Below, in pieces: positions 1 through 16,342 of a DNA stretch of 64,000 bases (position 1 is the stretch's first letter; each line of letters begins with the position of its first letter). The position numbers and the translations under genes are program-made. The stretch is taken from the NCBI GenBank assembly GCA_965223845.1, contig CBDCXR010000004.1, positions 7,776,001 to 7,840,000 on the forward strand. The letters run 5' to 3'. The notes beneath the pieces were generated by a model. That model was given only the letters and a program-made list of their open reading frames with translations. It was not told where the DNA came from and made no database searches. The DNA comes from Planctomycetota bacterium. Lineage in GTDB: Bacteria; Planctomycetota; UBA8108; SXIK01.

Positions 1-265
1 CCTTGAGGGCGCGCGCGCCGACCTCGCCGACGAGTCCCGCGGCGATCTCGAGGTCTCTCCGATCCGCGCGCTCACGACCGGCGTCGTCTTTTCGCTCCGC
101 GGTCCGGCGCGAACCTGCCGATTTCGCGACTCGGTCGGCGGGTGGATTCACGTCACCGCGTTCACGACGCCGGAGGACGCGATCTCCGGCGAGGAGGGAT
201 CGAGTCGCGATGACGAAGAGCTCGAGCGGACGCGACCGCTCAGTGAGGAGCTGATTTCCGTTCAT
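1..265 (-). CDS. partial hypothetical protein (5' end; runs off the window edge)
   Basis: ATG at 265 on the minus strand opens a frame with no stop to the window edge (MNGNQLLTERSRPLELF...DLEIAAGLVGEVGARALK); no family recognised. Confidence 0.3.
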   Translation of the reverse strand, partial: MNGNQLLTERSRPLELFVIATRSLLAGDRVLRRRERGDVNPPADRVAKSAGSRRTAERKDDAGRERADRRDLEIAAGLVGEVGARALK

Positions 266-490
266 CCGTACTGGGGTACCTACCGGCCGATCCTGAAACC
301 AATTGGAGCGAGCTTGCAGGAGGCGGAGTTCGAGTCGACTCTCGGGGCGCACCGCCGCCGAACGGCGTTTTGCTACACGTCGGCGGTCGAGCTCGCTGCG
401 CACTACATCGATCGCGCCCTCGGCTCGACCGGCTGAACCGCGATTCCGGGATCAGATCCTCGGCTGGCGCGGGACACGGAATCGCCGGGC

Positions 491-3349: not shown

Positions 3350-3507
3350 GGAATCCCTCCCTGACGCTAGTTCCCCTCTATCGTAAAAGGGGCATCGAGA
3401 ACGACAAAGAACCGGCGAATCCGGCGTCTTCAGTCTGCCGGCGCGTCTGCTCGGTCGAACCGGCGAATCGAGAACGAAAATGGGAGCGCGGTCGTCTTCC
3501 TTCGTCG

Positions 3508-3536
3508 TTGACACCCGCCGGTGGGCACCCTACGAT
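3508..3536 (+). promoter_or_regulatory. sigma70-type promoter facing the CIS operon
   Basis: TTGACA (3508-3513), 17-nt spacer, TACGAT (3531-3536). Confidence 0.6.
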
Positions 3537-3637
3537 CCCTCTGCCTTTTTCGAGCATTCCTTCGGTTACGTGCGGTTCCCGTCGCCCACGAACCGGGTGA
3601 CTGCGTCGAGCTGGGCCGCGGCGCGACCGGCGCTGCG

Positions 3638-3668
3638 CGGGTAGAACAGCGGGGCGAGCCGGGTAGAA
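3638..3668 (+). repeat. 9-bp direct repeat CGGGTAGAA x2, 22-bp period, in the CIS leader
   Basis: cgggtagaa at 3638-3646 and 3660-3668. Confidence 0.45.
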
Positions 3669-3944
3669 ACGACGGCGGGGATGCGTCGCGTGCGAGGAAG
3701 GGTCTGACCTCCGCGCGATGCGCAGCCGAATCGCGGGCGCGAGGGCGCACGGGCGTGCGAAGACCGGTGCCGCGGAGCGAGGTTCTGCCTCGTCGACGCG
3801 GCGATGTCGTGACGGTCTCGGCCTCGACTTGGCGTTCAACCGCGACTCACGGTCGGCGCGGACGAGGCGAATCGTCTTTCCGCGAACCCGTCTCGCTCGG
3901 CGACCGCCGAGTCGAGCTCCGTCGTGAAGAGAGGAGAAGCAAAG

Positions 3945-4541
3945 GTGGCCACCCGCGTCCTCTACGAAGTGAGCCGCAGCCTTTGTACGGTGATCGAGAA
4001 CGGCCTGCGGGAGCGCGTCGGGCGGCCCGTTCCGGTTCTGTTTTCTCACCCGCTCGACCCCGCCGAAGACGAGTCTCTGCAAGGCCTCTTCGGAGTTCTC
4101 TACCTGACGAGCGTCGTTCCCGACCCGCACTTTCGTCAGGCGGGATTCGACGCCGCGGCGCCGCGCCCCGCCGGATTCGACGAGCAACTCCGCCGCGCGC
4201 CGCTCTGGGTGCGTGCGCGGTTCGTCTTTCTCCTCGCCGGAGGGGACATCGAAGAGCAGCTCGTCGCGCTCGGCGGCGCGCTGCAGACGCTCTACGATCA
4301 TCCGACCGGACGCCTTTCCGCCGCCGACCTCGAACCCGACTCGGCCCTCCGTCGCTCGGAGGCGGAGAGCGAGGAGTACATCCTCCGGCTTCTCGACCGC
4401 GGCGATGGCTGGTCGGAGCTCGGCCTGCCGGAACACCGCTTGTCGATCAGCTTCGAGGTGACGTGCGCGATCCGCTCGACGCACGTCGAGCTCGTCGCGC
4501 GCACCGAAGAGCGCTCCGTCGACTTCGAGGTCGAGCCGTGA
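3945..4541 (+). CDS. DUF4255 / Pvc16-Afp16-like CIS cap (tail terminator) protein
   Basis: GTG with GAGGAG RBS; pattern LYLTSV..DPHFR...PLWVRARFVFLL...EEQL..LGGALQTLYDHP...RLSISFEV; first gene of the tail cluster. Confidence 0.7.
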   Translation: MATRVLYEVSRSLCTVIENGLRERVGRPVPVLFSHPLDPAEDESLQGLFGVLYLTSVVPDPHFRQAGFDAAAPRPAGFDEQLRRAPLWVRARFVFLLAGGDIEEQLVALGGALQTLYDHPTGRLSAADLEPDSALRRSEAESEEYILRLLDRGDGWSELGLPEHRLSISFEVTCAIRSTHVELVARTEERSVDFEVEP

Positions 4542-6004
4542 TCGCGCTCCGCACGGTATCGCGCCCCGACGACTCCGCCCCGCTCGCCGGTCCGCCGCTC
4601 TCGATCGAGCGTCTTCGTCACAACGCGATGCGAGCGCCGGATGTGATGTGGCGCGGAGTCGGTCTCACGGCCTTCGTCGGCTCGTTCTCGGCCGATGGGA
4701 ATCGACTCGCGGGAGCGAATCGGGCGGAGCCCGTTCTTCTCACCGCTCCCGAAGCGATCGAGCGCGAGTCGTCGAGCGAGAGCGGTTCGCGCGGCTTCGC
4801 GAGCGAAGCACTCGCCGCGTACCTCTCGAGTGGGAGGACGGCGGTCGCGCTCGATGAGAATCGCGAAGCGTTCTCGCGTACGAATGCCGACTACGACGCC
4901 CCGCGCGCATCCGATTGGATCGGCGACGATGCCGGTCCGGGCCGCCGCACGGGCGTGTTTCAGCTCGTCGACCTTCAAGACGTGTCGACGATCGCGCTCG
5001 TCGGGTCCTCGTCGCCCGCGCGTCGCGAGCGCCTCCTTCGGCTCGCGGCCGAGCGGCGCGATAAGTACTTTGTCTTCATCGAGCCGCCGGAGGCCTCGGA
5101 CGGTCGCGCGCCCGAGCTCATCATCGATCGCGCGAACACCGCGACTCTTCGCGTTGCCGGTGGCGCCGGCGAGATCGCGGGGCAATTCCTCGCGCGCGTC
5201 GAGTCGACCGACCTCGATTCCGCCGCAGTCAGCGGCGATGGCGCCGTGCGCCGGTACGCGGAGGAGTCCTTTCTCGTTCGGGGGATCCCTTGGGCGTCCG
5301 TGACGGCGATCCGAGCCTGGCGGAGGATCGAAGGGCTGCGCCGCTCGATCGAGCTCGGCACGCGCTGGGTGGTTCTCGAGCCGCACCACCCGCTCGTCTG
5401 GCGCCGCGTCGAGCGCCAGGTGCGTGCGTTTCTCTTTCGCATGGCGGAGTGCGGCGTCGTCCGGGAGCCGCGGCGCCGCGGCGGATTCGCCGTCGCCTGC
5501 CGTCCCCGCATCGAGGGTTCCGTCGCGGCCGTCGATGTTTCGGTCCGAGTCGAGCTACCGCCGCCCTTCGACATCGATCTCGACGGGATCGCTCCCGTTC
5601 CGACTCGCGCGCCGAAGGCCGCGCCGGACGAGAGTGCGATCGAATCGAATCACCGCGTGGCGTCTCCCGCGGCGGCTCCTCGCGAGGAGAGTGAATCGTC
5701 GAGTGCGAGTGCAGATCTGCCGACCGATCCGAGTCGACGAGATCGTGGAGACGATCCCGGCGGGATCGATCGGCCGGAATTCGAACGCCACGGAGACGAC
5801 CGAACGGATCGCAACTCGCCGAAGGACCAGACCGGCTCGCCGAAGGACCAGACCGGCTCGCCGAAGGACCAGAACGGGGAAGACGGGCCCGCGGAGTCCG
5901 ACACGCCGGATTCCACGCGCCGCGAACCGCGAGATCGTCCGCGCCGGAGTCGATCCCGCAACTCTCAAAAACGAGACCAGAAGACCGGAAAGGAGAAGAG
6001 ATGA
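4538..6004 (+). CDS. divergent contractile tail sheath protein with disordered C-terminal tail (~488 aa)
   Basis: GTGA coupling to the upstream gene. Sheath-like motifs RTGVFQLVDLQDVSTI, YFVFIEPP and RRSIELGTRWVVLEPHHPLVWRRVERQVRAFLFRM...GFAVAC (sheath C-terminal domain). Lies directly before the tube gene. Confidence 0.75.
   Translation: MIALRTVSRPDDSAPLAGPPLSIERLRHNAMRAPDVMWRGVGLTAFVGSFSADGNRLAGANRAEPVLLTAPEAIERESSSESGSRGFASEALAAYLSSGRTAVALDENREAFSRTNADYDAPRASDWIGDDAGPGRRTGVFQLVDLQDVSTIALVGSSSPARRERLLRLAAERRDKYFVFIEPPEASDGRAPELIIDRANTATLRVAGGAGEIAGQFLARVESTDLDSAAVSGDGAVRRYAEESFLVRGIPWASVTAIRAWRRIEGLRRSIELGTRWVVLEPHHPLVWRRVERQVRAFLFRMAECGVVREPRRRGGFAVACRPRIEGSVAAVDVSVRVELPPPFDIDLDGIAPVPTRAPKAAPDESAIESNHRVASPAAAPREESESSSASADLPTDPSRRDRGDDPGGIDRPEFERHGDDRTDRNSPKDQTGSPKDQTGSPKDQNGEDGPAESDTPDSTRREPRDRPRRSRSRNSQKRDQKTGKEKR
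5815..5877 (+). repeat. 21-bp tandem repeat x3 (ctcgccgaaggaccagaccgg) encoding SPKDQ(T/N)G
   Basis: Two exact copies and a third with one mismatch, in frame in the sheath C-terminal tail. Confidence 0.9.
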
Positions 6005-6498
6005 ACCGGAGCGTGCCCTTTGTCGGAAACTTCAACTTCCTCGTCGAGATCGAGGACATCGAAGGCGACGCGACCTCGGTCGTCGGCGGCTTTTCCGAAG
6101 TGAGCGGACTCGTATCCGAATCGGAGATCGTCGAGTTTCAAGTCGGGAATCGGCCGACGACCTACAAGATCCCCGGACGCACCCGCTTCGGAAACGTCGT
6201 TCTCCGAAAGGGCTGCACCGTTTCGACGGATCTCTACGACTGGCGTCGACGAGTCGAGCGCGGCGAGGACGACCGTCGCTCCGGCTCGGTCATCCTCCTC
6301 GACGGCGAGCTCCGCGAGCGCGCGCGCTGGAATTTTTACGACGCGTGGCCCTGCCGCTACGAAGCTCCCGAGCTCAGTGCGACGGATACGGCGATCAGCG
6401 TCGAGACGCTCGAGCTCTGCGTCGAGCGAATCGAACGCGTCGAGCTCCCACGAGAGGAAGTCGATGCGCCGACGGAGGCCGGAGCGGCGCAGAGCTGA
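6001..6498 (+). CDS. T4 gp19-like tail tube protein (Afp1/5-like)
   Basis: FNFLVEI..GGFSEVSGL..E..EFQVG...KIPGRTRFGNVVLRKG...LYDW...RRSGSVILLD...RWNFYDAWP...ETLEL. Confidence 0.93.
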   Translation: MNRSVPFVGNFNFLVEIEDIEGDATSVVGGFSEVSGLVSESEIVEFQVGNRPTTYKIPGRTRFGNVVLRKGCTVSTDLYDWRRRVERGEDDRRSGSVILLDGELRERARWNFYDAWPCRYEAPELSATDTAISVETLELCVERIERVELPREEVDAPTEAGAAQS

Positions 6499-6559
6499 GC
6501 GCGCCGACTCGACGCACGGCAGACGACTCGCCGCTTCCGCGGGAAGGATACAGCGAACC

Positions 6560-6946
6560 ATGGCGCGAACGACCGAGCTCGAACCAGGAACCGGAGCCGC
6601 CGGAGACTATTCCGTCGCATTCGAGCTGAGCGATGGCCTGCGCGACGCGCGCGGTCACCATCGCGCGGGGCGGATGCGACCGGCGCGTGTCGGCGACGAG
6701 CTCCGCGGCCTCCGCGACTTTCGCGTGTATCTCCGTCCCGACGCGTTTCTGCGAGTCATGCTCGCCCGTACGGTCTCCCCGTTCGGCGAGCACGCGCGGC
6801 TCGATGCGGGGATGATCGATCGGCTGAGCGAGCGCGATCGCCGGCAGCTCGAGGCGCTCTACGCCGAGCTGAACGGCTACGACGATCGCGGGGGCGATGG
6901 TGGAGTCACCGACGACGGGTCGCGTGGGGACGGTACCGTGCCATGA
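6560..6946 (+). CDS. CIS tail assembly chaperone-like protein
   Basis: FELSDGLRD..GHHRAGRMRPARVGDEL..LRDFRV...MLARTV...IDRL...DRRQLEALYAELN resembles the conserved small protein that follows the tube in actinobacterial-type eCIS. Confidence 0.65.
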   Translation: MARTTELEPGTGAAGDYSVAFELSDGLRDARGHHRAGRMRPARVGDELRGLRDFRVYLRPDAFLRVMLARTVSPFGEHARLDAGMIDRLSERDRRQLEALYAELNGYDDRGGDGGVTDDGSRGDGTVP

Positions 6947-7353
6947 GAGACCAGCTTCTCCGGAGCGATCGGTTCCATCTCGAGATCGACGGCTACGCGA
7001 CGGCGAGCTTCCTTCGCTGTTCGGGGCTCGGCGCCGAGCGTGAGGTCTTCGTCTACCGAGAGGGCGGCGCGGACATCGCGAGCATTCTCCCGGGATCCGT
7101 ACGGCCTTCGACTCTCGCGTTCGAAGTCGGCCTGACTCGCGGCGGCGAGCTCTTCTCGTGGTTCGAGCGAGGGGATCGCCGCGACGGCGCCGTCGTGCTC
7201 GAGTCGAGCGCGGGGGAGGAGCAGATGCGATGGGAGTTCGAGCGCGGCGTGCCGATTCGATGGCTCGGACCGCAGCTGGACGCGGGTTCGGCGGCGGTCG
7301 CGATCGAACGGATCGAGCTCGCACACGAGGGCCTCCGATGTCGAGTCGGCTGA
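6943..7353 (+). CDS. second gp19-like tail tube protein
   Basis: RFHLEIDG..ASFLRCSGL..E.EVFVYREGG...LPG...LFSWF...RRDGAVVL...MRWEF..GVPIRWLGPQLDA..AVAIERIELAHEGL. Confidence 0.9.
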   Translation: MRDQLLRSDRFHLEIDGYATASFLRCSGLGAEREVFVYREGGADIASILPGSVRPSTLAFEVGLTRGGELFSWFERGDRRDGAVVLESSAGEEQMRWEFERGVPIRWLGPQLDAGSAAVAIERIELAHEGLRCRVG

Positions 7354-8219
7354 TCGTCCGAGCGCGCGAGCGGTACTCGCCCGGAGAGCTCTTCGTGCTC
7401 CGCGTCCCACGGATCGCGGCCGAGGGATTCGTTCGTTCGGTCGCGGATCGATGGGAGCGGGAGGCCGATGTCATGGCGCGTCACCTCGAGGAGGAGCGGC
7501 CGCAGCTCGACTGGTCGCCGCGCGTCGCTCGGGATACGTCGCTCGTCGTCGACGGCCGCGCGAAGACGCGACGCAAGTTCGAGCGCAGCGTGCGCGGCGC
7601 GCGAACGTCGACGACGAGTCCTCGTGGCTGGCGTTCGGGACAAAGCATCCTCGACGAGCCCGATTCCGGACGAGAGCTGAGCGCGCGCGACACCGCGGAG
7701 TCCGAGCGAGGTTTCGAGCTCGCGTCGCCCTCGGCCGCACCCGAGGAACCGGAAGCGGACGGACGGCGTGGATCCCCGCTGGCTTCCGATCTCGCGCCCG
7801 GTCTCGAGCGGATCGGCATTCCGCTGCGCCGTTCGATGGACACGGAGGCGCGCGGCGGGCGGAGATCGAACGACGAGCCCAACCGTCGCGCCGCGGAGAC
7901 GCCGGGAGCGGGCGAACCGGCGGAGCCGGGAGATGCCTCGCGCTCCGCGATGACCGGGCCGACGCGACCCGACCGAGCCGAAGCCGCGCCGAGGCGCGGG
8001 CTGCCCGCGCGCGACGGAGCCGCCGTCCCTCGAGGAGCGGCGATTCCGTCTCCGTTCGCGGACCAGACCTCGGCACGCGATCTCGAGTCGTCTGAAGCGA
8101 CGGGACGATGCTTTCGCCGAGACGATCTCAAGCGACGCGTCGCCGAGGCGACCGACGCGCTCGACGAGCGACTCCGATTCGAGCGCGCGCTCCGAGAGTG
8201 GAAGGAAACCGAGTTTTGA
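7338..8219 (+). CDS. low-complexity CIS-associated protein (possible tape-measure/linker)
   Basis: Overlaps both neighbours; disordered P/A/R/E-rich centre; helical C-terminus DDLKRRVAEATDALDERLRFERALRE. Confidence 0.55.
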   Translation: MSSRLIVRARERYSPGELFVLRVPRIAAEGFVRSVADRWEREADVMARHLEEERPQLDWSPRVARDTSLVVDGRAKTRRKFERSVRGARTSTTSPRGWRSGQSILDEPDSGRELSARDTAESERGFELASPSAAPEEPEADGRRGSPLASDLAPGLERIGIPLRRSMDTEARGGRRSNDEPNRRAAETPGAGEPAEPGDASRSAMTGPTRPDRAEAAPRRGLPARDGAAVPRGAAIPSPFADQTSARDLESSEATGRCFRRDDLKRRVAEATDALDERLRFERALREWKETEF

Positions 8220-8695
8220 TGTTGCCGGGTGAGATGCCGATGGCGCCAAGCGACCCGCAATCGCGTGACCTCGTGCGCGCGACGATCACGCACCTCGATT
8301 CCCTCGAGAGCCTCGCTGTCGACTGGAACCCGGCGAGCTACCGACTCGAGACCGAAAACCGCTTCGCGTTCGCCGCACCGCTCGGTGCGCGGGCGGCGCC
8401 GCAGTACGCGGCGGGCGGGTCGACGCGCTTTTCGACGAGACTCCTCCTCGACGGAACCGGGCGTTCGGGCTCCGATCCTCTCGCCTCGGCGCGGCGTTTG
8501 TCCGCGTGGGCGAAGCCGGACGCGAGCGGGCTACCGGCGCGGCTCCTTTTCGCGTGGGGGAAGTTCCGGTTCCGCGGCTCGATCGAGTCGCTCAACGAAG
8601 AGTGGGTGCTCTTCGATCGCGAAGGTCAGCCGCGCCGTGGCTGGCTCGACCTCGTCCTCGTCGGTGCGACGTCCTCCGCGCCCTCGCACCCTTGA
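8219..8695 (+). CDS. CIS tube initiator (Afp7/Pvc7-like), no LysM domain seen
   Basis: WNPASY...QYAAGG...LLLDGT...PARLLFAWGKFRFRGSIESLNEEWVLFDREGQPRR. Confidence 0.8.
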   Translation: MLPGEMPMAPSDPQSRDLVRATITHLDSLESLAVDWNPASYRLETENRFAFAAPLGARAAPQYAAGGSTRFSTRLLLDGTGRSGSDPLASARRLSAWAKPDASGLPARLLFAWGKFRFRGSIESLNEEWVLFDREGQPRRGWLDLVLVGATSSAPSHP

Positions 8696-8719
8696 TCGGA
8701 ATCGACGGCCGAGAAGACG

Positions 8720-9538
8720 ATGCCTCCCGAAGCATTCTCCGAGTGGACGCTCCCGCCAGGGTTTCGGGTCTCGATCGCGACTCCGGACGACAGCGGCGGC
8801 GTTGCCGCTAGCGGCGGCGATCGAGCCGGCGGAATCGGACGACTCTATTTCTTCTCCGGAGTCGACCGCGTCGATCGTCTCGAGTGTGATCTCGTCGGCC
8901 GAGCGGCGAGTCTCGTGCCCGCGCTGGGAGCGGAGATTCGGCTCCGCGTGCCGGGAGCTTCGCGCGCGTTCGTCGGCAACGTCGATTCGGTCGAGAGCGA
9001 TCGCAGCGCCGACGGCAGCCGGACGCGCGTGGTGGCGCTCGCCGCGCTGGAGTCTCGCCGCCGCGAGTTCGGAACGCGGACGTTCGCCTCGGTGACCGAC
9101 AGCGAGGTCGCGGCGGCCGTCGCCGATGCCCTCGGTCTTGCGGCCGATCTCGAGCCGACGTCCGCCGTGCGCGGCCGGGTCGTCATCGAGGGCGATCCGC
9201 TCGTCTACCTGAAGGAGTCGGCGCGCGCGCTCGGATTTCAGTTCGCGGTGGACGGCGGCACGCTGCGCTTTCGCCGCGAGCTCAGAGGGGCCACCCGACG
9301 CACGGTCGACCGGCGCCGCGATGCGATTCTCTCGGAGTCGTGGTCGGTCTCGCGCCGGGGAGCCGCGCGTGGCAAGATAGCGCTCTTCGGCGACCCGACC
9401 TGGACGCCGCTCACGCGGTTCGCGCTGCGGGGATTCGGCCGCGCGCGAGACGGGGTGGTTCGCGCCGAGCGCGTGCTTCACGTGGTCGCCCGCGCTGGGT
9501 ATCGAACGGAGATCGAATTCCGTGGAGGAAACTCGTGA
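8720..9538 (+). CDS. phage late-control D / gp27-like baseplate hub (N-terminal part of VgrG/Afp8)
   Basis: TRTFASVTDSEVAAAVADALGL...DPLVYLKESARALGFQFAVDGGTLRFR...VLHVV...GYRTEIE; no gp5 OB-fold or beta-helix seen. Confidence 0.75.
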   Translation: MPPEAFSEWTLPPGFRVSIATPDDSGGVAASGGDRAGGIGRLYFFSGVDRVDRLECDLVGRAASLVPALGAEIRLRVPGASRAFVGNVDSVESDRSADGSRTRVVALAALESRRREFGTRTFASVTDSEVAAAVADALGLAADLEPTSAVRGRVVIEGDPLVYLKESARALGFQFAVDGGTLRFRRELRGATRRTVDRRRDAILSESWSVSRRGAARGKIALFGDPTWTPLTRFALRGFGRARDGVVRAERVLHVVARAGYRTEIEFRGGNS

Positions 9539-9756
9539 TCGACGGCTCTCTGGTGCGCGATCGACCGGCGTTCGGCTCGTCGTGCCGTCGAGGGGTTCCC
9601 CGACGCTCGCCGAACCGAGTTGCCTCGCCGCGAACCGATCGGTGGATCGCTCGAGGTCTCTCGTTCGTTCGAACGTCCGGCGTCATCGCCGCACCGGGGT
9701 GGTCGATCGAGCTGTTCGCCTCGCGTACTCACGAATTCGGCCGGAGGCGACCATGA
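9535..9756 (+). CDS. 73-aa orphan ORF between hub and gp25
   Basis: GGAGGA RBS; GTG overlaps the hub stop (GTGA) and its TGA overlaps the gp25 ATG (ATGA); no family recognised. Confidence 0.45.
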   Translation: MIDGSLVRDRPAFGSSCRRGVPRRSPNRVASPRTDRWIARGLSFVRTSGVIAAPGWSIELFASRTHEFGRRRP

Positions 9757-10142
9757 TCCGACCGGTGGGACGCGACCACCTTCTGCAAGACGCGCGCGGA
9801 CGAGACGACGCGGGCGAGAGCGCAGGCTTCGGGGTCGGTGGGCTCGCCGACGAGGAAACCCTCGAGCGCATCCGTCGCATCCTCGCCATCGTTCCTGGGG
9901 AGCGCCGACTCCTCCCCGAATTCGGTTGCCGCGTGCACGCAGTCGATCCGAAGTCTCCCGGAGCACACGATCTCGCCGCCGGCCTCATCGAGGACGCGCT
10001 GGATCGCTGGGCGCCGGAGCTCGGCTGCGGGGCGGTCGAGATCCTCTCCTGGACGGGGGGGCGACTTTGTTTCTCGCTCGTGAGCGCGCGTGGAGCGGGT
10101 CGAGTCGAAATCGTGCATCGCTTTTCCGGAGCCGCCGGTTAG
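9753..10142 (+). CDS. gp25/GpW-like baseplate wedge protein (Afp9-like)
   Basis: GGAGG RBS; IRRILAIVPGERRLLPEFGC...IEDALDRWAPE. Confidence 0.85.
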   Translation: MIRPVGRDHLLQDARGRDDAGESAGFGVGGLADEETLERIRRILAIVPGERRLLPEFGCRVHAVDPKSPGAHDLAAGLIEDALDRWAPELGCGAVEILSWTGGRLCFSLVSARGAGRVEIVHRFSGAAG

Positions 10143-10318
10143 CAGTCCCTTGAAAGAGTTCTTCGAGTCGAGAACCGATTCCTCGGCGGATCGATGGGCC
10201 GCGGCAAACGCAGGCAATCTCCTTAGGGTTCGAGTTTGGGCGCGGTGAAACCGAGCGTGAAGGTCCAGAGTTCTCGGCCGGACGAGTTTTCAGCGGGCTG
10301 GAGGCCCTAGGGGGAGCG

Positions 10319-12775
10319 ATGACCCAAGGTGGATCGCGCCCGAGCGCGGCGGAGACGAATGAGGACGTCGCGCGGGTGTACGAGTCGCTTCGCGAGAAGA
10401 TGCTGCGCCGTGACCCCGATTGGTCGCAGGTCGCTCCGGACGATCCTCGTCACGTGCTTCTCGAGGTGTTCGCCGAGGAGCTCGCGGATCTCGACGGACG
10501 GCTCCGGTCGGCGCGCGAGAGCCTCGTGCCCCGTCTTCTCGAAGCGCTTGGCGGGGAGCCGCGAGATCCGATTCCCGCGTCGACACTCCTTCGGTTCGTT
10601 TCCGCAGAGGACGGATCGGCAAGAGTTCCGGCGGGGACGGTGGCGCTCGCCCGCCGCCGCGACGGCGAGCCGCGCGTCTCGTTCGAGACGACCGGAGGCG
10701 TATGGGTGAGCCGAGCCGAGGTGCGTCGCGTCGTGACGCAGTGCGTCGAGGACGAGCGCGATTGGACGGTGTACCCGTCGGCCGGCTGGGAGCGACCCGA
10801 CGGAGCGTGGCTCGGACATCGGACGCGGCGAGCCCGGTACGTCTACGTTGGCGATGCGGCGCTCGCATGTCTCAGGCTTCCGTCCGCCGAGCTCGTTCTC
10901 GAATGCCCCGTTCGAGTCGAGGACCGCGCCGAGTTCGTCCGTTCGGAATGGGAGGGCAGGACGCCGCGCGGTTGGCGGCGACTCGCGATCGAGTGGGACG
11001 CTCGAGGTGAGGACGGAGGCGACACCCTGCTCGCGCGCATCCGCGGGCCCGCGCCGGATCTCTCGCTCGAGCCGGTCGACGGACTCCGGAGCTACTGGCT
11101 TCGCTGTGCGCTCCCGAGCACGTTTTCCGGCGAGATCGGCGACTGGCGATGGGCGTCGCTTCGCCTCGGTACGGACGCTCCGGAAGGCTCTGCGCTCGCG
11201 CCGACGCTGCGGTTTCCCCGCTCGGTCGCGAAGCTGCTCTCCGAGGACGAAGACGAGACGCGCGATCACTCGCTCAGTCGGGAGAGCGCCGCTCCGGCGA
11301 GCGCCGCGCCTACCCATCAGCCGACCGTGTGCGTCGGGCTCGATCGAGCCGGTGCGGGGAGTCTCGCGTTCGAGTTCGACGCGCCGCTCGGTCCGACCAC
11401 CGCGGGGACGGACTCCTCGTCGCGACCTCAGTTTCAGTGGGAGTACAGCATCGAGGGCGGATTTCGCGTCCTCTCCGTCGACGACACGACGGAAGGTTTC
11501 ACTCAATCGGGGGCGATCACGTGGAACGCGCCTCCCGACTGGGCCGAGGTCGAGCTCTGCGGAGAGCGACTCTTCTGGATTCGCGGTCGGTGGGTCGATG
11601 GCGCTCGACCGTCTCCGGCTCGACTTCTCGCGATCGTTCCGCATGCCGCTCCGGCCGAACAGCGCCGTACGCTTTCGGGGTGCGTCCGTGAAGTGTCGTT
11701 CGACGAACGCGGACGCGGCCGGCTCACGGATGCGGCTGGCGATGGGACTCCGCTTCGTTTCGAGACGTTCGAGCTCTGCGATGATGAGGGCGTGTGGCGA
11801 ACCTTCTCTCGGCGCCCGGACGACGCCACCGAGAACGCTTCCGCGAGCGGATTTCGACTGCGGCGACTCGTGCGCGGCGGTGGGATCGAGATCGAGCTCG
11901 ATCCTCGTTGGCGCGGGCGGAGGCGGCTTCGCTTCGAGACGCTCGCGTACACGCACGGGGAGAGAGGCTCTGTTCCCGCGGAGAGCGTCGTCGTCATCGA
12001 AGACGAGGGCCGCGGCGTCGACCACGTCGTTCAGCCGCGGGCGGCGTCGGGAGGCCGGGACGTCGAGTCGGCGACGGCGTTTCGTCGTCGTCTCGCCTGG
12101 GAGTGGGGCTCGTCCAGCCGCCTCGTCACCCGCGCCGATTTCGAGCGGGCGCTGCGAGCTCTCGAACCTCGGGTCGCGCGCGTCGAGATCTACGTCGATC
12201 CGCGTTGCGGAAGTCGGGTCGACGCGACCGTCGTGCTCGATGGCGAGACCGAGCCGGGAGCCCTCTCGCCCGCGCGTCTCCGCGAGCTCGAGGTCGAGCT
12301 CACGGAACGGACGCCGCTGGGGACGGCGCTCGTTCTGCACGAGCCGGCGTTCGTCGACGTCGATCTCGTCGTCGGTGCGCCGCTCGGCGGGGCGGCCGAG
12401 AGTCGCGCCGTCGCGGCCCGGGTCGCACGCTTCTTCGACCCGCTCACCGGCGGAACCGACGCGAGTGGTCTCCCGACGGGAGGATGGCTCGGCAGCATCG
12501 ATCTCGCCACTCTCGCCGGCGACGGAAGCCTCCCGATCGGGTCGGTGCGGCTCGAAGCGACCGATCGATCGGCGGTGCTCCCGCGGGAGTGGCGGGAGTC
12601 GGCGTTCGCCCGGGCGCCGGTCGCTTTCCCTCGTCTCGTATCGGTGCGCGAAGAATCAGTCGCGAACGCGCGCGGTTTCGCAGATGAGATGAGCGGGGAC
12701 GCATCGCGAAACGCCGCGGCGGATTCGCCTTCCGTGAACAAGCCCGAGGACGACGTCCTCCCCGGAGACGACTGA
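10319..12775 (+). CDS. baseplate J/gp47-like assembly protein (Afp11/12-like)
   Basis: PDWSQVAPDDPRHVLLEVFA...VPAGT...FETT...DDTTEGFTQSG...AASGGRDVES...RLVTRADFE...FFDPLTGG. Confidence 0.9.
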   Translation: MTQGGSRPSAAETNEDVARVYESLREKMLRRDPDWSQVAPDDPRHVLLEVFAEELADLDGRLRSARESLVPRLLEALGGEPRDPIPASTLLRFVSAEDGSARVPAGTVALARRRDGEPRVSFETTGGVWVSRAEVRRVVTQCVEDERDWTVYPSAGWERPDGAWLGHRTRRARYVYVGDAALACLRLPSAELVLECPVRVEDRAEFVRSEWEGRTPRGWRRLAIEWDARGEDGGDTLLARIRGPAPDLSLEPVDGLRSYWLRCALPSTFSGEIGDWRWASLRLGTDAPEGSALAPTLRFPRSVAKLLSEDEDETRDHSLSRESAAPASAAPTHQPTVCVGLDRAGAGSLAFEFDAPLGPTTAGTDSSSRPQFQWEYSIEGGFRVLSVDDTTEGFTQSGAITWNAPPDWAEVELCGERLFWIRGRWVDGARPSPARLLAIVPHAAPAEQRRTLSGCVREVSFDERGRGRLTDAAGDGTPLRFETFELCDDEGVWRTFSRRPDDATENASASGFRLRRLVRGGGIEIELDPRWRGRRRLRFETLAYTHGERGSVPAESVVVIEDEGRGVDHVVQPRAASGGRDVESATAFRRRLAWEWGSSSRLVTRADFERALRALEPRVARVEIYVDPRCGSRVDATVVLDGETEPGALSPARLRELEVELTERTPLGTALVLHEPAFVDVDLVVGAPLGGAAESRAVAARVARFFDPLTGGTDASGLPTGGWLGSIDLATLAGDGSLPIGSVRLEATDRSAVLPREWRESAFARAPVAFPRLVSVREESVANARGFADEMSGDASRNAAADSPSVNKPEDDVLPGDD

Positions 12776-13354
12776 GTGGTCGAGAACGAGTCTGCGTACC
12801 GTCGATCCCTCCGTGCTCGTCTTCCCGCGTTCTACCGCGAGGAGCCGGATCGACTCGAGCCCATCCTCGACACGATCGACCGAGCCCTCGCGGAATCGGA
12901 GCGCGAGATCGCGCGCTCGCTCGCGCCCGGCGACCGCTGGGACCGCGTGGCGGCGGAGGCGATCGGTCGACGAGATCCGCGTTCGGGCGACGGGCTCGCC
13001 GGGACACTCGCCGGCCTTCGAGGGGAAGTTCGGCGTCTCGTTGGAGCGGCGGAGTGCGCGGTGATCGTCGGCTTCGTCGCGGCAGCCGACGGGGCCTTAT
13101 CGGTACGCTTTGTGCGATCGCGACGCGCGGGTGCTATTTTGGTGTTTTCCGAGGACGCGCTGGCCGGGTGGGATCCGGAGCGGCTGCGCGGCTCGGTTCC
13201 GTTAAGCTCGCGGCTCCAGGTCGTCGCCGTGGCGTCCGAAGAAGACTACATCGCTTACCGCCGTGGGGCCGATCGCTACTGTGTTTACGGCGGTTTGAGA
13301 CTTTCGGGGCGAGTTGCCTGGGACTCCGACCGCGCTCGACACCGCGACGACTGA
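12776..13354 (+). CDS. phage tail protein I (P2 gpI)-like baseplate protein
   Basis: Starts right after the baseplate J stop; LRARLPAFYREE..RL...GTLAGL motif. Confidence 0.6.
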   Translation: MVENESAYRRSLRARLPAFYREEPDRLEPILDTIDRALAESEREIARSLAPGDRWDRVAAEAIGRRDPRSGDGLAGTLAGLRGEVRRLVGAAECAVIVGFVAAADGALSVRFVRSRRAGAILVFSEDALAGWDPERLRGSVPLSSRLQVVAVASEEDYIAYRRGADRYCVYGGLRLSGRVAWDSDRARHRDD

Positions 13355-13447
13355 GGCGCGCGAAGACCGCACTGGAGGCCCGGCCAGACCCCGGCGCGAA
13401 ACGCCCCGCCCAAACTCGAGGCCGTTCTGGGATCTAAGATCATCGCC

Positions 13448-14506
13448 ATGTCGACTCCGCACGAAACCATTCCCGTCAGCAGCTCGCTCGTCCGAGCCTC
13501 CGGCGCGAGCGACATCGGGAAGGTGCGGAAGGAGAACCAGGACAGTCTTCTCATCCACGAGCCCGATGATCCGGACATCATCGAGCGTCGCGGCGTGCTC
13601 GTCGTCCTCGCCGACGGCATGGGGGGGCTCTCCGATGGCAAGATCGCGAGCGAGCTCACGGTCGAGACCGTCAAGGACGAGTACTATTCCTATCTCGGGA
13701 ATCCGCGGGCGAGTCTAGAAGCGGCCGTCAAGAAGGCGAACCGCGTCGTCTTCGACAAGTCGAACGAGGGCGGAGAGAACCGGCAGATGGGGTCGACCCT
13801 GACGGCGCTCGTCGCGCTCTCGGGACGCGTCCTCATCGCGCAGATCGGCGACAGCCGCGCCTACCGCTATCGGCGAGGCTCGATCGAGCAGCTCACTCGC
13901 GATCACTCGCTCGTCCGCGAGCTCGTCGATCGCGGTGAGATCGATCTCCATTCGAATCAGTACGCGTTCCATCGCAACATCCTCACGCGCGGACTCGGAT
14001 TGCGTCCCGATCTAGCGGTCGACATCTACGAGCTCCTCGGCGTCGAGCCCGGAGATACCTTCCTCCTCTCGTCGGACGGGCTGCACGAGCTCGTCGAAGT
14101 GGACGAGATGGTTTCGATCATCGAGTCGCGCGGCGAGGATCTCGAGGCCGCCGCGCTCGAGTTCGTCGAGCTCGCGAAGGAGCGCGGCGGGACGGATAAC
14201 ATCACCGTCGCGCTCGTCGCGGTTCCGGACTCGACCGAGTCGGCCGCGGTCGTGCCGGATCCCGACCTCTCCCGGGTTCGCCGATCGAGCTGGATTCTTC
14301 CTGCTTCGATTCTGGGGAGCTTCGTCCTCGGCGTCATTCTCACCTTGACGACGCTCGCGCCCCCCGAGCTCACGCCGGAGGATCGGATGAGCCTTCGGAA
14401 CGAAGCGATCGGGCTTCTCCGCCGAATGCGACCGGGACTCTCCGCCGAGGATCGCGCGCGGATCGAGGAGAGGGTCGAGGAGATCCTCGATCGTCTCGGT
14501 CAGTGA
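13448..14506 (+). CDS. PP2C-family Ser/Thr phosphatase with C-terminal TM helix
   Basis: SDIGKVRKENQD, LADGMGG, MGSTL, IGDSRAY, QLTRDHS, LSSDGL, GGTDNIT; TM ILPASILGSFVLGVILTL. Confidence 0.95.
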   Translation: MSTPHETIPVSSSLVRASGASDIGKVRKENQDSLLIHEPDDPDIIERRGVLVVLADGMGGLSDGKIASELTVETVKDEYYSYLGNPRASLEAAVKKANRVVFDKSNEGGENRQMGSTLTALVALSGRVLIAQIGDSRAYRYRRGSIEQLTRDHSLVRELVDRGEIDLHSNQYAFHRNILTRGLGLRPDLAVDIYELLGVEPGDTFLLSSDGLHELVEVDEMVSIIESRGEDLEAAALEFVELAKERGGTDNITVALVAVPDSTESAAVVPDPDLSRVRRSSWILPASILGSFVLGVILTLTTLAPPELTPEDRMSLRNEAIGLLRRMRPGLSAEDRARIEERVEEILDRLGQ

Positions 14507-14623
14507 GCTCGGACTGAGCGACGCGGCTGACCCGCGTCACCCGGGCTCGCCGATTCGGCGCCTCTGCCATCGGACCGAGGGGTCGTGTGCCGACGCGGCG
14601 GTGCGAGCGGACTCGGTCGGTCC

Positions 14624-16060
14624 TTACGGCACCGCGTGAATGTGGATGAGATTCGTGACTTTGGGGCGATCGAACGGAAACCCTCCGACGATCACGATGC
14701 GATCGCCCGACTCGACGAGTCCTTCTCGGAGCGCGATCTGCTCGGAGTGAAGAACGATGTCGGCGAGCGAGCTCGGATCGCCGCCGTAGCGGGAACATTC
14801 GACGCCCCAGACGACGGAGAGGCGCCGGAGGATTCCCTCGTCGTTCCCGAGGACGTGAATCGGTACCGCGGGGCGACCGCCCGAAACGAGCCGCGCGGAC
14901 GCGCCGCTCTTCGTGTAGACGACGACCGCGCGGGCGTTCGTCGAGGCCGCCGCGAGGGACGCTGCGTCGCCGGTCGCTTCGGCTTCGGAAATCCCCGCCC
15001 TCGGCCGCAAATACGGGCGGTCCGGTCGTTGGCGAACGATCTCCGCCTCGGCCTCGCGTAGAATGCGCGCAGCCATCGCCACCGTCTCGACCGGGTACTT
15101 TCCGACGGCGGTCTCGGCCGAGAGCATGATCGCGTCCGTGCCGTCGAAGACGGCGTTGGCGACGTCGGAAGCCTCCGCCCGCGTCGGATACGGCTGCTGG
15201 ATCATCGACTCGAGCATCTGCGTCGCGGTGATCGTCGGAACTCGACCACGTCGCGCCCGCGCGATCATTCGCTTCTGCTCTACGGGGACCTTCTCCGGCG
15301 AGAGCTCGACGCCGAGGTCGCCGCGCGCAACCATGATGCCGTAGCACTCCTCGAGGATTGGACCGAGGTTCTCCACCGCCTCCGGCGTCTCGATCTTGGC
15401 GAAGACCGGAATATTGACGCCGAGTTCGTCGAGCGCGTCCTTGGTGGTTTCGACGTCGGCTGGGCTGCGAACGAACGAGAGCGCGACGAAGTCGACCGGG
15501 GCCGCGGCGCCGATCTCGAGGTCGCGCAGATCCTTCTCCGTGAGTGACGGCAGACTCGCCGTCGGCGTGTCGGGGAGATTCACACCGCGCCGATCGATCA
15601 CCTTTCCGCCGACGTCGACCCGGCAGCGCCAACCGTCCTCTTCCTTGGCGTCCGCGGTGAGACGGATTCGCCCGTCGTCCATCAGCACCCGGTGTCCCGC
15701 GTCGAGCTCCGCGAGCACGGCGGTCGGGGAGATGAAGAGACGACCGGGCCGGCTTTCGTCATCGCCCCCGGAGATCAGCACCGATTCTCCCTCGGAGAGT
15801 AGGACCGCGCCGTTTCGGCACGTCGTGGTGCGGATCTTGACGCCGCGGAGATCCTGTAGGATTCCGATGTGTCGTCCGAACCCGTTCGAGACCTCACGGA
15901 CGAGCTGGCAGTACTGCCGGTGCTCGTCGGGCGAACCGTGGGAGAAATTCACGCGGAAGACGTCGACTCCCTCGCGCACGAGGGCCTCGACCATCGCGCG
16001 CGAATGACTCGCCGGGCCGAGCGTCGCGACGATTTTCGTTCTTCGGTTCGACTCCGTCAT
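14624..16060 (-). CDS. pyk: pyruvate kinase
   Basis: RRTKIVATLGPAS, FRVNFSHG, AKIET, GIMVARGDLGVE, TATQMLESM, PTRAEASDVANA. Confidence 0.97.
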   Translation of the reverse strand: MTESNRRTKIVATLGPASHSRAMVEALVREGVDVFRVNFSHGSPDEHRQYCQLVREVSNGFGRHIGILQDLRGVKIRTTTCRNGAVLLSEGESVLISGGDDESRPGRLFISPTAVLAELDAGHRVLMDDGRIRLTADAKEEDGWRCRVDVGGKVIDRRGVNLPDTPTASLPSLTEKDLRDLEIGAAAPVDFVALSFVRSPADVETTKDALDELGVNIPVFAKIETPEAVENLGPILEECYGIMVARGDLGVELSPEKVPVEQKRMIARARRGRVPTITATQMLESMIQQPYPTRAEASDVANAVFDGTDAIMLSAETAVGKYPVETVAMAARILREAEAEIVRQRPDRPYLRPRAGISEAEATGDAASLAAASTNARAVVVYTKSGASARLVSGGRPAVPIHVLGNDEGILRRLSVVWGVECSRYGGDPSSLADIVLHSEQIALREGLVESGDRIVIVGGFPFDRPKVTNLIHIHAVP

Positions 16061-16342
16061 GATGCGACGCCTCCGAGGCTCCGCTGGTTTGGGGGGCGAC
16101 GATCGCCGCGGAACGATCGGCGATAGTAGACCCGAGCGACGCGGAGAATTGAACCCGTCGCCGGTGGTGAACTCGGGCGAGCACGATCGACCGAGTCGCT
16201 CTCGGCCTCGGTGGGGGACGAGATCGAAGAAATCGAGTTGGAAATCGAGAGCGATCGCAGTAGGGAGAGTGGGAGGCGCGAGGCGTAGCGCGTACTCGCC
16301 CGCGGTGGCGGTGTTCACGAACATACGAAAGCGAGAGACGAT

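What the first reader, a model, noticed from the sequence alone, without database searches (positions are those of the whole stretch)
3945..13354. Minimal, highly diverged contractile injection system lacking spike tip, PAAR, fibre and ATPase
Seen: twelve same-strand ORFs, mostly overlapping or abutting: DUF4255, sheath, tube, chaperone, tube, low-complexity protein, tube initiator, hub, orphan, gp25, baseplate J and P2-I. There are no capsid, terminase or integrase genes. Established: DUF4255 with gp19 tubes and baseplate defines eCIS (Afp, PVC, MAC, Streptomyces CIS), which normally also encode a gp5 spike, PAAR, an AAA+ ATPase (Afp15) and often fibres or toxins. None of those is recognisable here, and the initiator has no LysM. 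Yet the frames are intact and coupled. Inference: either a stripped-down or repurposed (possibly intracellular) nanomachine in a planctomycete-like host, or a system completed in trans by genes elsewhere.
Basis: partly seen in the sequence, partly recalled or inferred. Interest (0 to 1): 0.78.

Follow-up and report, generated by a model that had tools for sequence, protein, structure and literature searches.

The report
Spike-less minimal contractile injection system, Planctomycetota
This is a real, intact phage-tail-like injection machine conserved across one uncultured order of Planctomycetota; it has a blunt hub with no piercing spike, no loading ATPase and no fibres, and is linked to phospho-signalling genes, so it probably works differently from known injection systems.

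Summary
Window 3945-13354 carries 11 co-directional, mostly overlapping genes: cap (Pvc16_N), one small sheath, two gp19 tubes, a CIS_tube initiator without LysM, a 272-aa hub, gp25, Baseplate_J and three genes with no family match.

The hub is a gp27-like module that ends where the spike domains of Afp8, Pvc8 and VgrG begin.

The locus is syntenic and intact in 20 of 20 same-order genomes searched. dN/dS is 0.07-0.34, so it is not a relic.

A second, canonical CIS locus with a full VgrG lies elsewhere in this genome. However, 12 of 20 relatives that keep the minimal locus have no Phage_base_V match in the whole genome. Completion in trans is therefore not the general answer. No AAA gene lies in 0 of 17 lineage loci, against 35 of 63 canonical eCIS loci.

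New here:
- An FHA plus long coiled-coil gene and a small unknown gene always precede the cap. They lie just outside the window, and an inserted FG-GAP gene separates them from the cap in this genome.
- A membrane-anchored PP2C phosphatase often follows the locus.
- The tape-measure-like gene and its neighbour are missing together in some lineages.

Verdict: a new variant of a known kind, probably a cell-internal, phosphorylation-gated device.

The parts
1..436 (+). 3' part of 'sup', a small conserved protein of unknown family. The whole gene is G000:C4:7775816-7776436 (L024:11816-12436, 206 aa). The FHA + coiled-coil gene lies just upstream, outside the window, at G000:C4:7773858-7775666.
   Evidence: Orthologues lie between the FHA-coiled-coil gene and the cap in all 8 related loci examined. 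No Pfam or NCBIfam match. AF2 model pLDDT 76.5. No Foldseek match. Best VIA-wide match is Nqo15/frataxin-like at Z 8.3, which is weak.
3945..4541 (+). Tube/sheath terminator cap (Afp16/Pvc16-like)
   Evidence: Pfam Pvc16_N, 33.1 bits, cut-off 27. Orthologues in 8 of 8 loci.
4538..6004 (+). Single small contractile sheath. The core is about 340 aa, followed by a genome-specific low-complexity tail of about 130 aa.
   Evidence: No Pfam hit. Profile A2 hits solved phage/CIS sheaths: 9ezm E 3e-13, 8bl4, 8bky, pyocin, Afp2. 29% identity to the locus 2 sheath, which carries Phage_sheath_1/1C. The tail is absent from relatives.
6001..6498 (+). Main tube protein (tube1, Afp1-like)
   Evidence: Pfam Phage_T4_gp19, 121 bits. 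Profile hits AlgoCIS, tCIS, PVC and Afp tubes. 52-72% identity to orthologues.
6560..6946 (+). g04, a small protein also found in canonical eCIS loci. Its role is unknown; tape-measure chaperone or plug is inferred.
   Evidence: No Pfam, NCBIfam or PDB match. tblastn hits in 24 of 63 canonical eCIS loci. Absent together with g06 in L017, L018, L019 and L022.
6943..7353 (+). Second tube paralogue (tube2, Afp5-like)
   Evidence: Pfam Phage_T4_gp19, 82.5 bits.
7338..8219 (+). g06, a low-complexity protein rich in R, A and E. A tape-measure role is inferred from position only.
   Evidence: No family match. Only the N-terminal 50 aa or so are conserved, and only within the family. Composition. Missing in 4 of 8 related loci, where tube2 abuts the initiator.
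8219..8695 (+). Tube initiator (Afp7-like) without LysM
   Evidence: Pfam CIS_tube, 50.6 bits; no LysM hit.
8720..9538 (+). Baseplate hub: a gp27-like module only, with no OB-fold or beta-helix spike
   Evidence: Profile A1 aligns to residues 25-161 and 283-347 of AlgoCIS 7aef_q, and to Pvc8 and Afp8. AF2 pLDDT 86.7. Foldseek E 1e-15 to 1e-11 to the eCIS spike-hub chains and to hub-only Mu gp44 and the pyocin hub, TMq about 0.7. About 65 database representatives of 245-338 aa match as a single full-length stretch.
9753..10142 (+). gp25-like wedge protein. The alternative in-frame GTG start at 9522 overlaps the hub stop.
   Evidence: Pfam GPW_gp25, 26.3 bits against a cut-off of 27.2. tblastn to the locus 2 gp25, E 1e-4. 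Frame inspection.
10319..12775 (+). Baseplate J / gp6-like wedge protein (Afp11-like)
   Evidence: Pfam Baseplate_J, 35 bits. TIGR02243 partial match. Orthologues in 20 of 20 same-order genomes.
12776..13354 (+). g11, a conserved protein of 177-203 aa after J. A gp7/P2-I-like wedge partner is inferred from position only.
   Evidence: Conserved after J in 7 loci. No Tail_P2_I signal by Pfam, PDB profile or hhalign.
13448..14506 (+). PP2C Ser/Thr phosphatase with one C-terminal transmembrane segment
   Evidence: Pfam PP2C_2 52 bits and PP2C 42 bits. Adjacent on the same strand in 5 of 9 loci, counting the window. A hydrophobic segment lies at about residues 273-318 in 5 of 5.

Best explanation
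The locus encodes a functional contractile tail-like machine. It is inherited vertically and is specific to one uncultured order of Planctomycetota. It is built from nine recognisable structural parts: a cap, one small sheath, two tube paralogues, a tube initiator, a blunt gp27-only hub, and the gp25, J and g11 wedge proteins. A tape-measure-like gene and its small neighbour are optional.

The lineage has lost the gp5/OB spike, PAAR, the Afp15-type ATPase and the fibres of canonical eCIS. It has gained a constant partnership with an FHA plus long coiled-coil protein, a small alpha/beta protein ('sup') and, often, a membrane-anchored PP2C phosphatase.

Most likely mode of action (inferred): the machine assembles and fires inside the producing cell. 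The FHA protein reads a phospho-threonine mark written by one of the many Ser/Thr kinases, and the PP2C erases it. This would gate or tether the baseplate, much as the Fha/PppA pathway gates some T6SS. Contraction would expel a blunt tube rather than a sharpened needle.

Shown: gene identities, loss of the spike domain, conservation, purifying selection, and the linkage to FHA, sup and PP2C.
Inferred: intracellular action, phospho-gating, and any target.
For: Identity of parts:
- Pfam matches for cap, tubes, initiator, J and gp25.
- Sheath profile against solved sheaths, E 3e-13.
- Hub profile and fold against AlgoCIS, tCIS, CIS-Sc, PVC and Afp hubs. The hub covers only their N-terminal 350 residues or so.

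Conservation:
- J orthologues in 20 of 20 same-order genomes, against 1 weak match in 20 genomes from other orders of the class.
- In a 401-genome phylum sample, full-length matches occur only in the 8 same-order genomes.
- Same gene order with intact frames in 8 of 8 fetched loci.
- MoaE/MoaD are conserved upstream.
- The 18 tube1 sequences form one clade, SH-aLRT 97.
- dN/dS is 0.07-0.34 at dS 0.12-0.29 for all 10 genes compared between L017 and L019.

Losses:
- Hub, gp25 and J overlap or abut in 6 of 8 related loci, which leaves no room for a spike or PAAR gene.
- A VgrG probe hits 0 of 17 lineage loci against 46 of 63 canonical loci.
- An AAA ORF is present in 0 of 17 against 35 of 63.
- A canonical eCIS ATPase matches this genome only over the AAA core.
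- Phage_base_V is absent from 12 of 20 same-order genomes, including 10 of 10 in genus g5. PAAR is absent from 17 of 20.

Accessory genes:
- The FHA-coiled-coil gene precedes the cap in 8 of 8 fetched loci and hits 12 of 17 lineage loci against 0 of 63 canonical loci.
- sup is present in all 9 loci.
- PP2C with a transmembrane segment is adjacent in 5 of 9.
- There are 89 Pkinase matches in the genome.
Against: - There is no direct evidence that particles form, that they stay inside the cell, or that FHA and PP2C act on them. The linkage is synteny only.
- PP2C is not adjacent in genus g5, and no kinase lies in the window.
- In this genome an inserted FG-GAP gene on the opposite strand separates FHA/sup from the cap, so co-transcription is broken here.
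- A spike too diverged for Pfam could be encoded elsewhere. sup, g04 and g11 have no assigned role, and one of them could close the hub.
- This genome does hold a canonical VgrG in locus 2.
- Most genomes are MAGs of 55-96% completeness, so absences are 'not found'.
- No RNA run was listed, so nothing is known about expression.
Confidence: 0.5

Rival explanations
1. A released, extracellular tailocin/eCIS-like particle that works with a blunt or differently plugged hub. In this reading FHA and PP2C regulate only production, or are unrelated neighbours, and the particle binds targets through the large J protein.
For: All structural genes are of eCIS type: Pvc16_N, gp19 tubes, CIS_tube, Baseplate_J. 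The tubes nest inside the eCIS tube radiation. No structural protein has a transmembrane segment that would anchor it. Per passages of PMC6899500, known eCIS subtypes already lack or have very divergent Afp12, 13 and 14, and subtype IIb lacks PAAR.
Against: No fibre or other receptor-binding gene, no lysis genes, and no ATPase or cargo gene in 17 lineage loci. The FHA-coiled-coil and sup genes are constant and same-strand in front of the cap. I know of no extracellular CIS without a spike; that statement is recalled, not searched exhaustively.
Confidence: 0.25
2. An ordinary eCIS whose missing spike, PAAR and ATPase are supplied in trans from other loci, such as the second CIS locus of this genome.
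For: This genome has a canonical locus with a 616-aa VgrG (GPD + Phage_base_V), gp25, J, P2_I and a patatin-like gene. 8 of 20 same-order genomes have a Phage_base_V match somewhere.
Against: 12 of 20 same-order genomes keep the minimal locus but have no Phage_base_V match. This includes 10 of 10 in genus g5, five of which are 90-95% complete. 17 of 20 have no PAAR match. Locus 2 itself has no AAA gene within about 60 kb. The two loci are distant lineages: tube identity is 30-36%, and they sit in separate places in the tube tree. The locus 2 VgrG carries its own gp27 module, so it would compete with the short hub rather than complete it.
Confidence: 0.12
3. A decaying or domesticated remnant of a phage tail or eCIS that no longer forms a contractile machine.
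For: Many canonical parts are missing. Several genes are so diverged that Pfam misses them (sheath, hub, g11). The tape-measure-like gene is lost in some lineages.
Against: Frames are intact in all 8 loci, and there are no internal stops in the J matches of 20 genomes. dN/dS is 0.07-0.34. Gene order is conserved across three families. The hub model is confident and complete for a gp27 module.
Confidence: 0.04

Closest known systems
Extracellular contractile injection systems (Afp, PVC, AlgoCIS) as defined by Chen et al. 2019 (PMC6899500; passages seen)
   Same: Pvc16_N cap, gp19-type tube paralogues, CIS_tube initiator, gp27-like hub, gp25 and Baseplate_J. Gene order runs cap, sheath, tube and so on to the baseplate. 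The best sequence and fold matches of the tube and hub are AlgoCIS, tCIS, PVC, Afp and CIS-Sc chains.
   Different: No gp5/OB-beta-helix part of Afp8, no Afp10 PAAR, no Afp15 ATPase, no Afp13 fibre and no LysM in the initiator. One sheath gene instead of two or three. FHA-coiled-coil, sup and PP2C genes are attached instead.
Cytoplasmic CIS of Streptomyces (CIS-Sc; PDB 9gtr, 8bl4) and thylakoid-anchored tCIS of Anabaena (PDB 7b5h)
   Same: eCIS-type parts that act inside the producing cell (recalled from the literature; Casu et al. 2023 is cited in PMC11937823). The hub model matches 9gtr_q and 7b5h_AJ at E 1e-13 to 1e-14.
   Different: Their hub chains are 585-641 residues and include the spike, against 272 here. 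No membrane-anchoring structural protein was found here. The FHA/PP2C linkage is not described for them in the searches I ran.
Threonine-phosphorylation control of type VI secretion (Fha, PppA, PpkA)
   Same: An FHA-domain protein and a PP2C phosphatase are encoded with a contractile sheath-tube machine. The T6SS pathway itself is recalled; T6SS reviews were listed but not read.
   Different: No T6SS membrane complex, TssB/C-type sheath or ClpV was identified. The FHA protein here carries a 500-900-aa coiled coil. No kinase is encoded in the locus.
Hub-only baseplate proteins of Mu-like and P2-like phages and R-pyocin (Mu gp44 1wru, MuSo2 3cdd, pyocin R2 hub 6u5h)
   Same: A gp27-like hub with no fused spike, about 300-330 residues, TMq 0.64-0.68.
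   Different: Those systems encode a separate gpV/gp45 spike (recalled). No such gene is in any of the 17 lineage loci or in 12 of 20 whole genomes.

Membership tests
eCIS superfamily (eight subunit types found in more than 85% of loci; Chen et al. 2019) | Afp1/5 gp19-type tube proteins | tested here: met
   Two Phage_T4_gp19 matches, 121 and 82.5 bits.
eCIS superfamily | Afp2/3/4 sheath | tested here: met
   Profile hit to solved sheaths, E 3e-13, including Afp2, Afp3 and pyocin at weaker E. No Pfam hit for the single sequence.
eCIS superfamily | Afp7 tube initiator | tested here: met
   CIS_tube, 50.6 bits; the LysM part is absent.
eCIS superfamily | Afp8 VgrG-like protein with gp27 and gp5 parts, fused or as two ORFs | tested here: not met
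   Only the gp27 part is present. There is no Phage_base_V in the locus, and the only one in this genome is in locus 2. A VgrG probe hits 0 of 17 lineage loci.
eCIS superfamily | Afp9 gp25-like wedge | tested here: inconclusive
   GPW_gp25, 26.3 bits against a cut-off of 27.2. tblastn to the locus 2 gp25, E 1e-4. Probably met.
eCIS superfamily | Afp11 Baseplate J | tested here: met
   Baseplate_J, 35 bits, cut-off 21.1.
eCIS superfamily | Afp15 AAA+ ATPase in or near the locus | tested here: not met
   No AAA match within 10 kb. 0 of 17 lineage loci against 35 of 63 canonical loci. A canonical eCIS ATPase matches this genome only over the AAA core.
eCIS superfamily | Afp16 terminator cap (DUF4255/Pvc16_N) | tested here: met
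   Pvc16_N, 33.1 bits.
Type VI secretion system | TssB/C sheath, TssJLM membrane complex and ClpV | not tested
   No family search for Tss proteins was run. The sheath matches phage-type sheaths. FHA and PP2C are accessory features, not defining ones.
Prophage tail or R-type tailocin | Tail fibres, a tape measure, a separate gpV spike, and neighbouring phage or lysis genes | tested here: not met
   The flanks are housekeeping genes. There is no spike. The tape-measure-like gene is missing in 4 of 8 loci. The cap and initiator are eCIS-specific families.
Tail_P2_I / gp7-like wedge protein (for g11) | Sequence match to Tail_P2_I | tested here: inconclusive
   No match by Pfam for 7 members at E up to 1, by PDB profile, or by hhalign to the locus 2 P2_I protein.

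The most novel reading that the evidence does not exclude
This would be a third way of using a contractile tail: neither a released needle nor a T6SS. It would be a spike-less, ATPase-less and sometimes ruler-less sheath-tube device kept by a whole planctomycete order. A phospho-threonine switch (FHA coiled-coil tether plus membrane PP2C) would arm it inside the cell. It would do something other than puncture a foreign membrane, such as programmed lysis, remodelling of internal membranes, or ejection of tube-borne cargo.
Probability: 0.3. Interest if true: 0.85.

Novelty: new variant of a known kind. Interest (0 to 1): 0.66.

Why it matters
Every contractile injection system described so far that I know of (recalled) carries a sharpened spike, and eCIS are partly defined by an Afp15 ATPase. 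A lineage that has dropped both, and in some members the tape measure too, yet stays under purifying selection across an order, gives the smallest natural parts list for a contractile tail.

It also links eCIS-type hardware to FHA/PP2C signalling, which until now has been a T6SS feature. That makes two questions testable: what a spike-less CIS does, and how firing is controlled. It also offers a compact chassis of 9 to 11 genes for structural work.

My literature searches found nothing on a Planctomycetota CIS or on an FHA/PP2C-linked eCIS. A 2025 metagenome survey of CIS does not mention the phylum in its main text. Supplementary tables of that survey and of dbeCIS could not be read and may list such loci.

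Tried and rejected
- The search for related loci with the J protein alone found no relative. With hub alignments A3 and A1 it returned an error because no stretch was conserved enough. The tube alignment A4 worked.
- The search for homologous proteins with the hub profile returned only 2 proteins because of its word filter. The exhaustive HMM search replaced it.
- sup as a substitute spike: the model has one long helix, a 5-6-strand sheet and a C-terminal helix. It has no Foldseek match at E up to 0.001. The VIA-wide best match is Nqo15/frataxin-like at Z 8.3, within the range the tool calls common for unmatched models. It is not an OB fold or a beta-helix, so it is not called a spike. Its role stays open.
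- The ESM Atlas gave nothing usable for sup (best 0.85) or g11.
- g04 and g11 profiles gave no PDB match. NCBIfam added only a partial TIGR02243 match for J.
- No RNA holder was listed among the sequencing runs (4 holders, one study).
- Complex prediction was not used. No pair had a prior strong enough to justify the single job.
- A phage origin was rejected: no capsid, terminase or integrase in the flanks, and the chromosomal position is conserved.
- A dedicated kinase was looked for: there are 89 Pkinase matches in the genome and none in the window.
Full report
**What is in the window**

The region is 69% G+C, so raw ORF lists are noisy. I fixed gene boundaries by frame inspection, ribosome-binding context and orthologues. 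On the + strand lie:

| Gene | Coordinates | Evidence |
|---|---|---|
| cap | 3945-4541 | Pvc16_N, 33.1 bits |
| sheath | 4538-6004 | no Pfam hit |
| tube1 | 6001-6498 | gp19, 121 bits |
| g04 | 6560-6946 | no hit |
| tube2 | 6943-7353 | gp19, 82.5 bits |
| g06 | 7338-8219 | low complexity, no hit |
| initiator | 8219-8695 | CIS_tube, 50.6 bits, no LysM |
| hub | 8720-9538 | no Pfam hit |
| gp25 | 9753-10142 | 26.3 bits against a cut-off of 27.2 |
| J | 10319-12775 | Baseplate_J, 35 bits |
| g11 | 12776-13354 | no hit |

Most junctions overlap by 1-16 nt or abut.

A 9-sequence sheath profile matches solved phage and CIS sheaths at E 3e-13. The sheath is also 29% identical to the sheath of a second locus that carries the Pfam sheath domains.

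The flanks are housekeeping genes: an FG-GAP protein, pyruvate kinase, GDPD and HisRS. A PP2C phosphatase follows directly at 13448-14506.

**The hub**

A profile of nine orthologues aligns to residues 25-161 and 283-347 of the AlgoCIS spike-hub chain 7aef_q. It also aligns to Pvc8 (9qgm_8A), Afp8 (6rbk_C), a VgrG and tCIS All3320.

The AlphaFold model is confident (pLDDT 86.7, pTM 0.83). Foldseek ranks the eCIS spike-hub chains first: 7aef_q, 7b5h_AJ, 9gtr_q, 6j0m_A, 9qgm_8A and 6rbk_C, at E 1e-15 to 1e-11. TMq is about 0.7 but TMt only 0.33-0.39, because those chains are 504-641 residues long. Hub-only proteins such as Mu gp44, MuSo2 43 kDa and the pyocin R2 hub match with TMt 0.57-0.59. The protein is therefore a gp27-like hub that stops where the OB fold and beta-helix of Afp8 or VgrG begin.

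An exhaustive HMM search of 1.84 billion representatives found 61 proteins at E up to 1e-30. It also found a block of about 65 that match as one full-length stretch and are 245-338 residues long (fragments aside). Below E of about 1e-22 the hits become two-stretch matches to proteins of 340-760 residues. The short hub is thus a family of its own.

**Conservation**

The J protein has orthologues in 20 of 20 genomes of the same order (families f1 3/3, f2 14/14, f3 3/3). Among 20 genomes from other orders of the class there is one weak N-terminal match.

In an even sample of 401 genomes of the phylum, full-length matches (E up to 1e-46) occur only in the 8 same-order genomes sampled. Fifteen genomes of other families give weak matches to a different J of about 1040 aa: N-terminal in all fifteen, plus a weaker C-terminal match in one.

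Eight loci that I fetched have the same gene order with intact frames. MoaE and MoaD are conserved upstream, which points to vertical inheritance at a fixed chromosomal site.

Pattern scanning with a tube1 alignment returned 17 Planctomycetota or unlabelled MAG loci at 54-73% identity. Eight of them are the loci already fetched. After these there is a drop to 47% or less in Actinomycetota, Chloroflexota, Acidobacteriota, Pseudomonadota and others.

In a tube tree the 18 lineage sequences form one clade (SH-aLRT 97). With weaker support (89) they are sister to five Chloroflexota loci. Three of those have an AAA hit (L064, L094, L103), and two have a VgrG-like ORF of 570-615 aa (L061, L064). The tree has few columns, and its sampling is biased by the search patterns.

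dN/dS between two congeneric loci (L017, L019) is 0.07-0.34 at dS 0.12-0.29 for all ten genes compared. This is not a decaying relic.

**What is missing, and whether it is supplied in trans**

In this genome the only Phage_base_V domain is in a second CIS locus at G000:C4:2.087-2.103 Mb. That locus encodes:
- a patatin-like protein,
- a Pvc16-like cap,
- a sheath with both Pfam domains,
- one tube,
- a CIS_tube initiator,
- a 616-aa VgrG (GPD + Phage_base_V),
- gp25,
- J,
- a Tail_P2_I protein,
- a PKD/PASTA protein.

PAAR, DUF4280 and Tox-PAAR-like gave no match in this genome. The DUF4280 search rang in none of the control genomes, so it is uninformative.

Across the order, though, 12 of 20 genomes that keep the minimal locus have no Phage_base_V match anywhere. 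This includes all 10 of genus g5, with completeness 55-95% and five at 90% or more. 17 of 20 have no PAAR match.

In 6 of 8 related loci hub, gp25 and J overlap or abut, which leaves no room for a hidden spike or PAAR gene. A probe with the locus 2 VgrG hits 0 of 17 lineage loci against 46 of 63 canonical loci.

For the ATPase:
- None of the 46 AAA matches in this genome lies within 10 kb of either locus.
- An AAA ORF lies in 0 of 17 lineage loci against 35 of 63 canonical loci. The lineage loci vary from 5.7 to 20 kb, so some flanks are short.
- A 732-aa AAA protein from a canonical Anaerolineae locus matches this genome only over its AAA core, residues 468-717.

In all eight related loci the cap is preceded on the same strand by two genes. 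The first encodes an FHA domain followed by a 500-900-aa coiled coil (Pfam FHA, 60.7 bits, for this genome's copy). The second is a small gene I call 'sup', 145-206 aa.

In this genome they lie at G000:C4:7773858-7775666 and 7775816-7776436. The window therefore begins inside sup. A 3-kb FG-GAP gene on the opposite strand (window 491-3514) has been inserted between sup and the cap.

The FHA gene is detected in 12 of 17 lineage loci and in 0 of 63 canonical loci.

sup has no family match. Its model (pLDDT 76.5) is a helix-sheet-helix sandwich with only a weak frataxin/Nqo15-like resemblance. It is not spike-like.

The PP2C gene follows the locus in 5 of 9 loci and always carries one hydrophobic segment near residues 273-318. 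The genome has 89 Pkinase matches, none of them in the window.

g04 and g06 are present together in this genome, G001, G003, G005 and G012. They are absent together in G008, G009, G010 and G011, where tube2 abuts the initiator. g04 also has tblastn matches in 24 of 63 canonical loci, so it is a general eCIS gene of unknown role.

A g11-like gene follows J in 7 loci. It shows no Tail_P2_I signal.

**Interpretation**

The parts list suffices in principle for a sheath-tube-baseplate machine that nucleates on a trimeric gp27-like hub. Compared with the eight subunit types that Chen et al. 2019 found in more than 85% of eCIS loci (PMC6899500, passages), two are not met: the gp5 half of Afp8, and Afp15. 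That paper reports subtypes with gp27 and gp5 split into two ORFs, subtypes without recognisable Afp12, 13 or 14, and one without PAAR. The passages I read do not report loss of the spike and the ATPase together.

The constant FHA-coiled-coil partner and the frequent membrane-anchored PP2C recall the threonine-phosphorylation control of some T6SS (recalled). Together with the lack of fibres, cargo, loading ATPase and lysis genes, they make a cell-internal, signal-gated device the most likely reading. I put this at 0.5. A released blunt particle is at 0.25, completion in trans at 0.12 and a relic at 0.04. None of the functional steps is shown.

**Literature**

Five full-text searches found nothing on a Planctomycetota CIS or on an eCIS linked to FHA or PP2C:
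- contractile injection system + Planctomycetota;
- contractile injection + FHA + cytoplasmic + sheath;
- contractile injection + Planctomycetes;
- eCIS + PP2C;
- contractile injection systems / new lineage / spike / metagenome.

PMC11937823 (passages) concerns Myxococcota eCIS. PMC12210884 (passages) surveys CIS in metagenomes and does not mention the phylum in its main text. Supplements were closed and may list such loci.

**Verdict**

This is a new variant of a known kind: an order-wide, spike-less and ATPase-less minimal CIS coupled to FHA and PP2C genes.

Noticed in passing
L004 (G000:C4:2086001-2105500), minus strand, about 1744-17149: A second, more canonical CIS locus in the same genome. 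It encodes a 760-aa patatin-like protein, a Pvc16-like cap with a CarboxypepD_reg domain, a sheath, one tube, a 521-aa protein with no hit, a CIS_tube initiator, a 616-aa VgrG, a 113-aa protein with no hit (a possible PAAR substitute), gp25, an 887-aa J, a Tail_P2_I protein and a PKD/PASTA protein. It has no AAA gene within about 60 kb.
   Followed up: partly
window 491-3514 (-): A 1007-aa FG-GAP repeat gene on the opposite strand lies between sup and the cap in this genome only, which splits the otherwise contiguous FHA-sup-cap arrangement. FG-GAP genes with a similar C-terminal region also lie beside the far end of the locus in L017 and L018.
   Followed up: partly
window about 5600-6004 (+): The sheath ends in a tail of about 130 aa rich in R, D, S and P, with three SPKDQ(T/N)G repeats. 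The tail is absent from the eight orthologues. A disordered extension at a sheath C-terminus is unusual, because that end normally takes part in strand exchange (recalled).
   Followed up: no
window 9539-9752 and 10143-10318: Two spacers of about 215 and 176 nt (hub to gp25, gp25 to J) exist here. A spacer of about 200 nt between hub and gp25 also exists in G003. Other relatives overlap at both junctions. The first spacer is in frame with gp25 from a GTG at 9522.
   Followed up: partly
G061, G093, G117, G230, G245, G275, G303, G317, G331 (family f27) and others: Other Planctomycetota families carry a J-like protein of about 1030-1095 aa. It matches residues 19-265 of this J (in G180 also residues 546-751), at E 1e-11 to 1e-17. 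This is presumably a different CIS lineage in the phylum.
   Followed up: no
G000 contig C1 (15,005 bases): This contig is 48% G+C against 63-68% for the other three contigs. It may be a contaminant or a mobile element in the assembly.
   Followed up: no
L017, L018, L019, L022: The FHA coiled-coil protein varies from about 600 to 1000 aa between loci, and it persists where the tape-measure-like gene is lost. Whether a long coiled coil could act as a length ruler or tether is an open idea.
   Followed up: no
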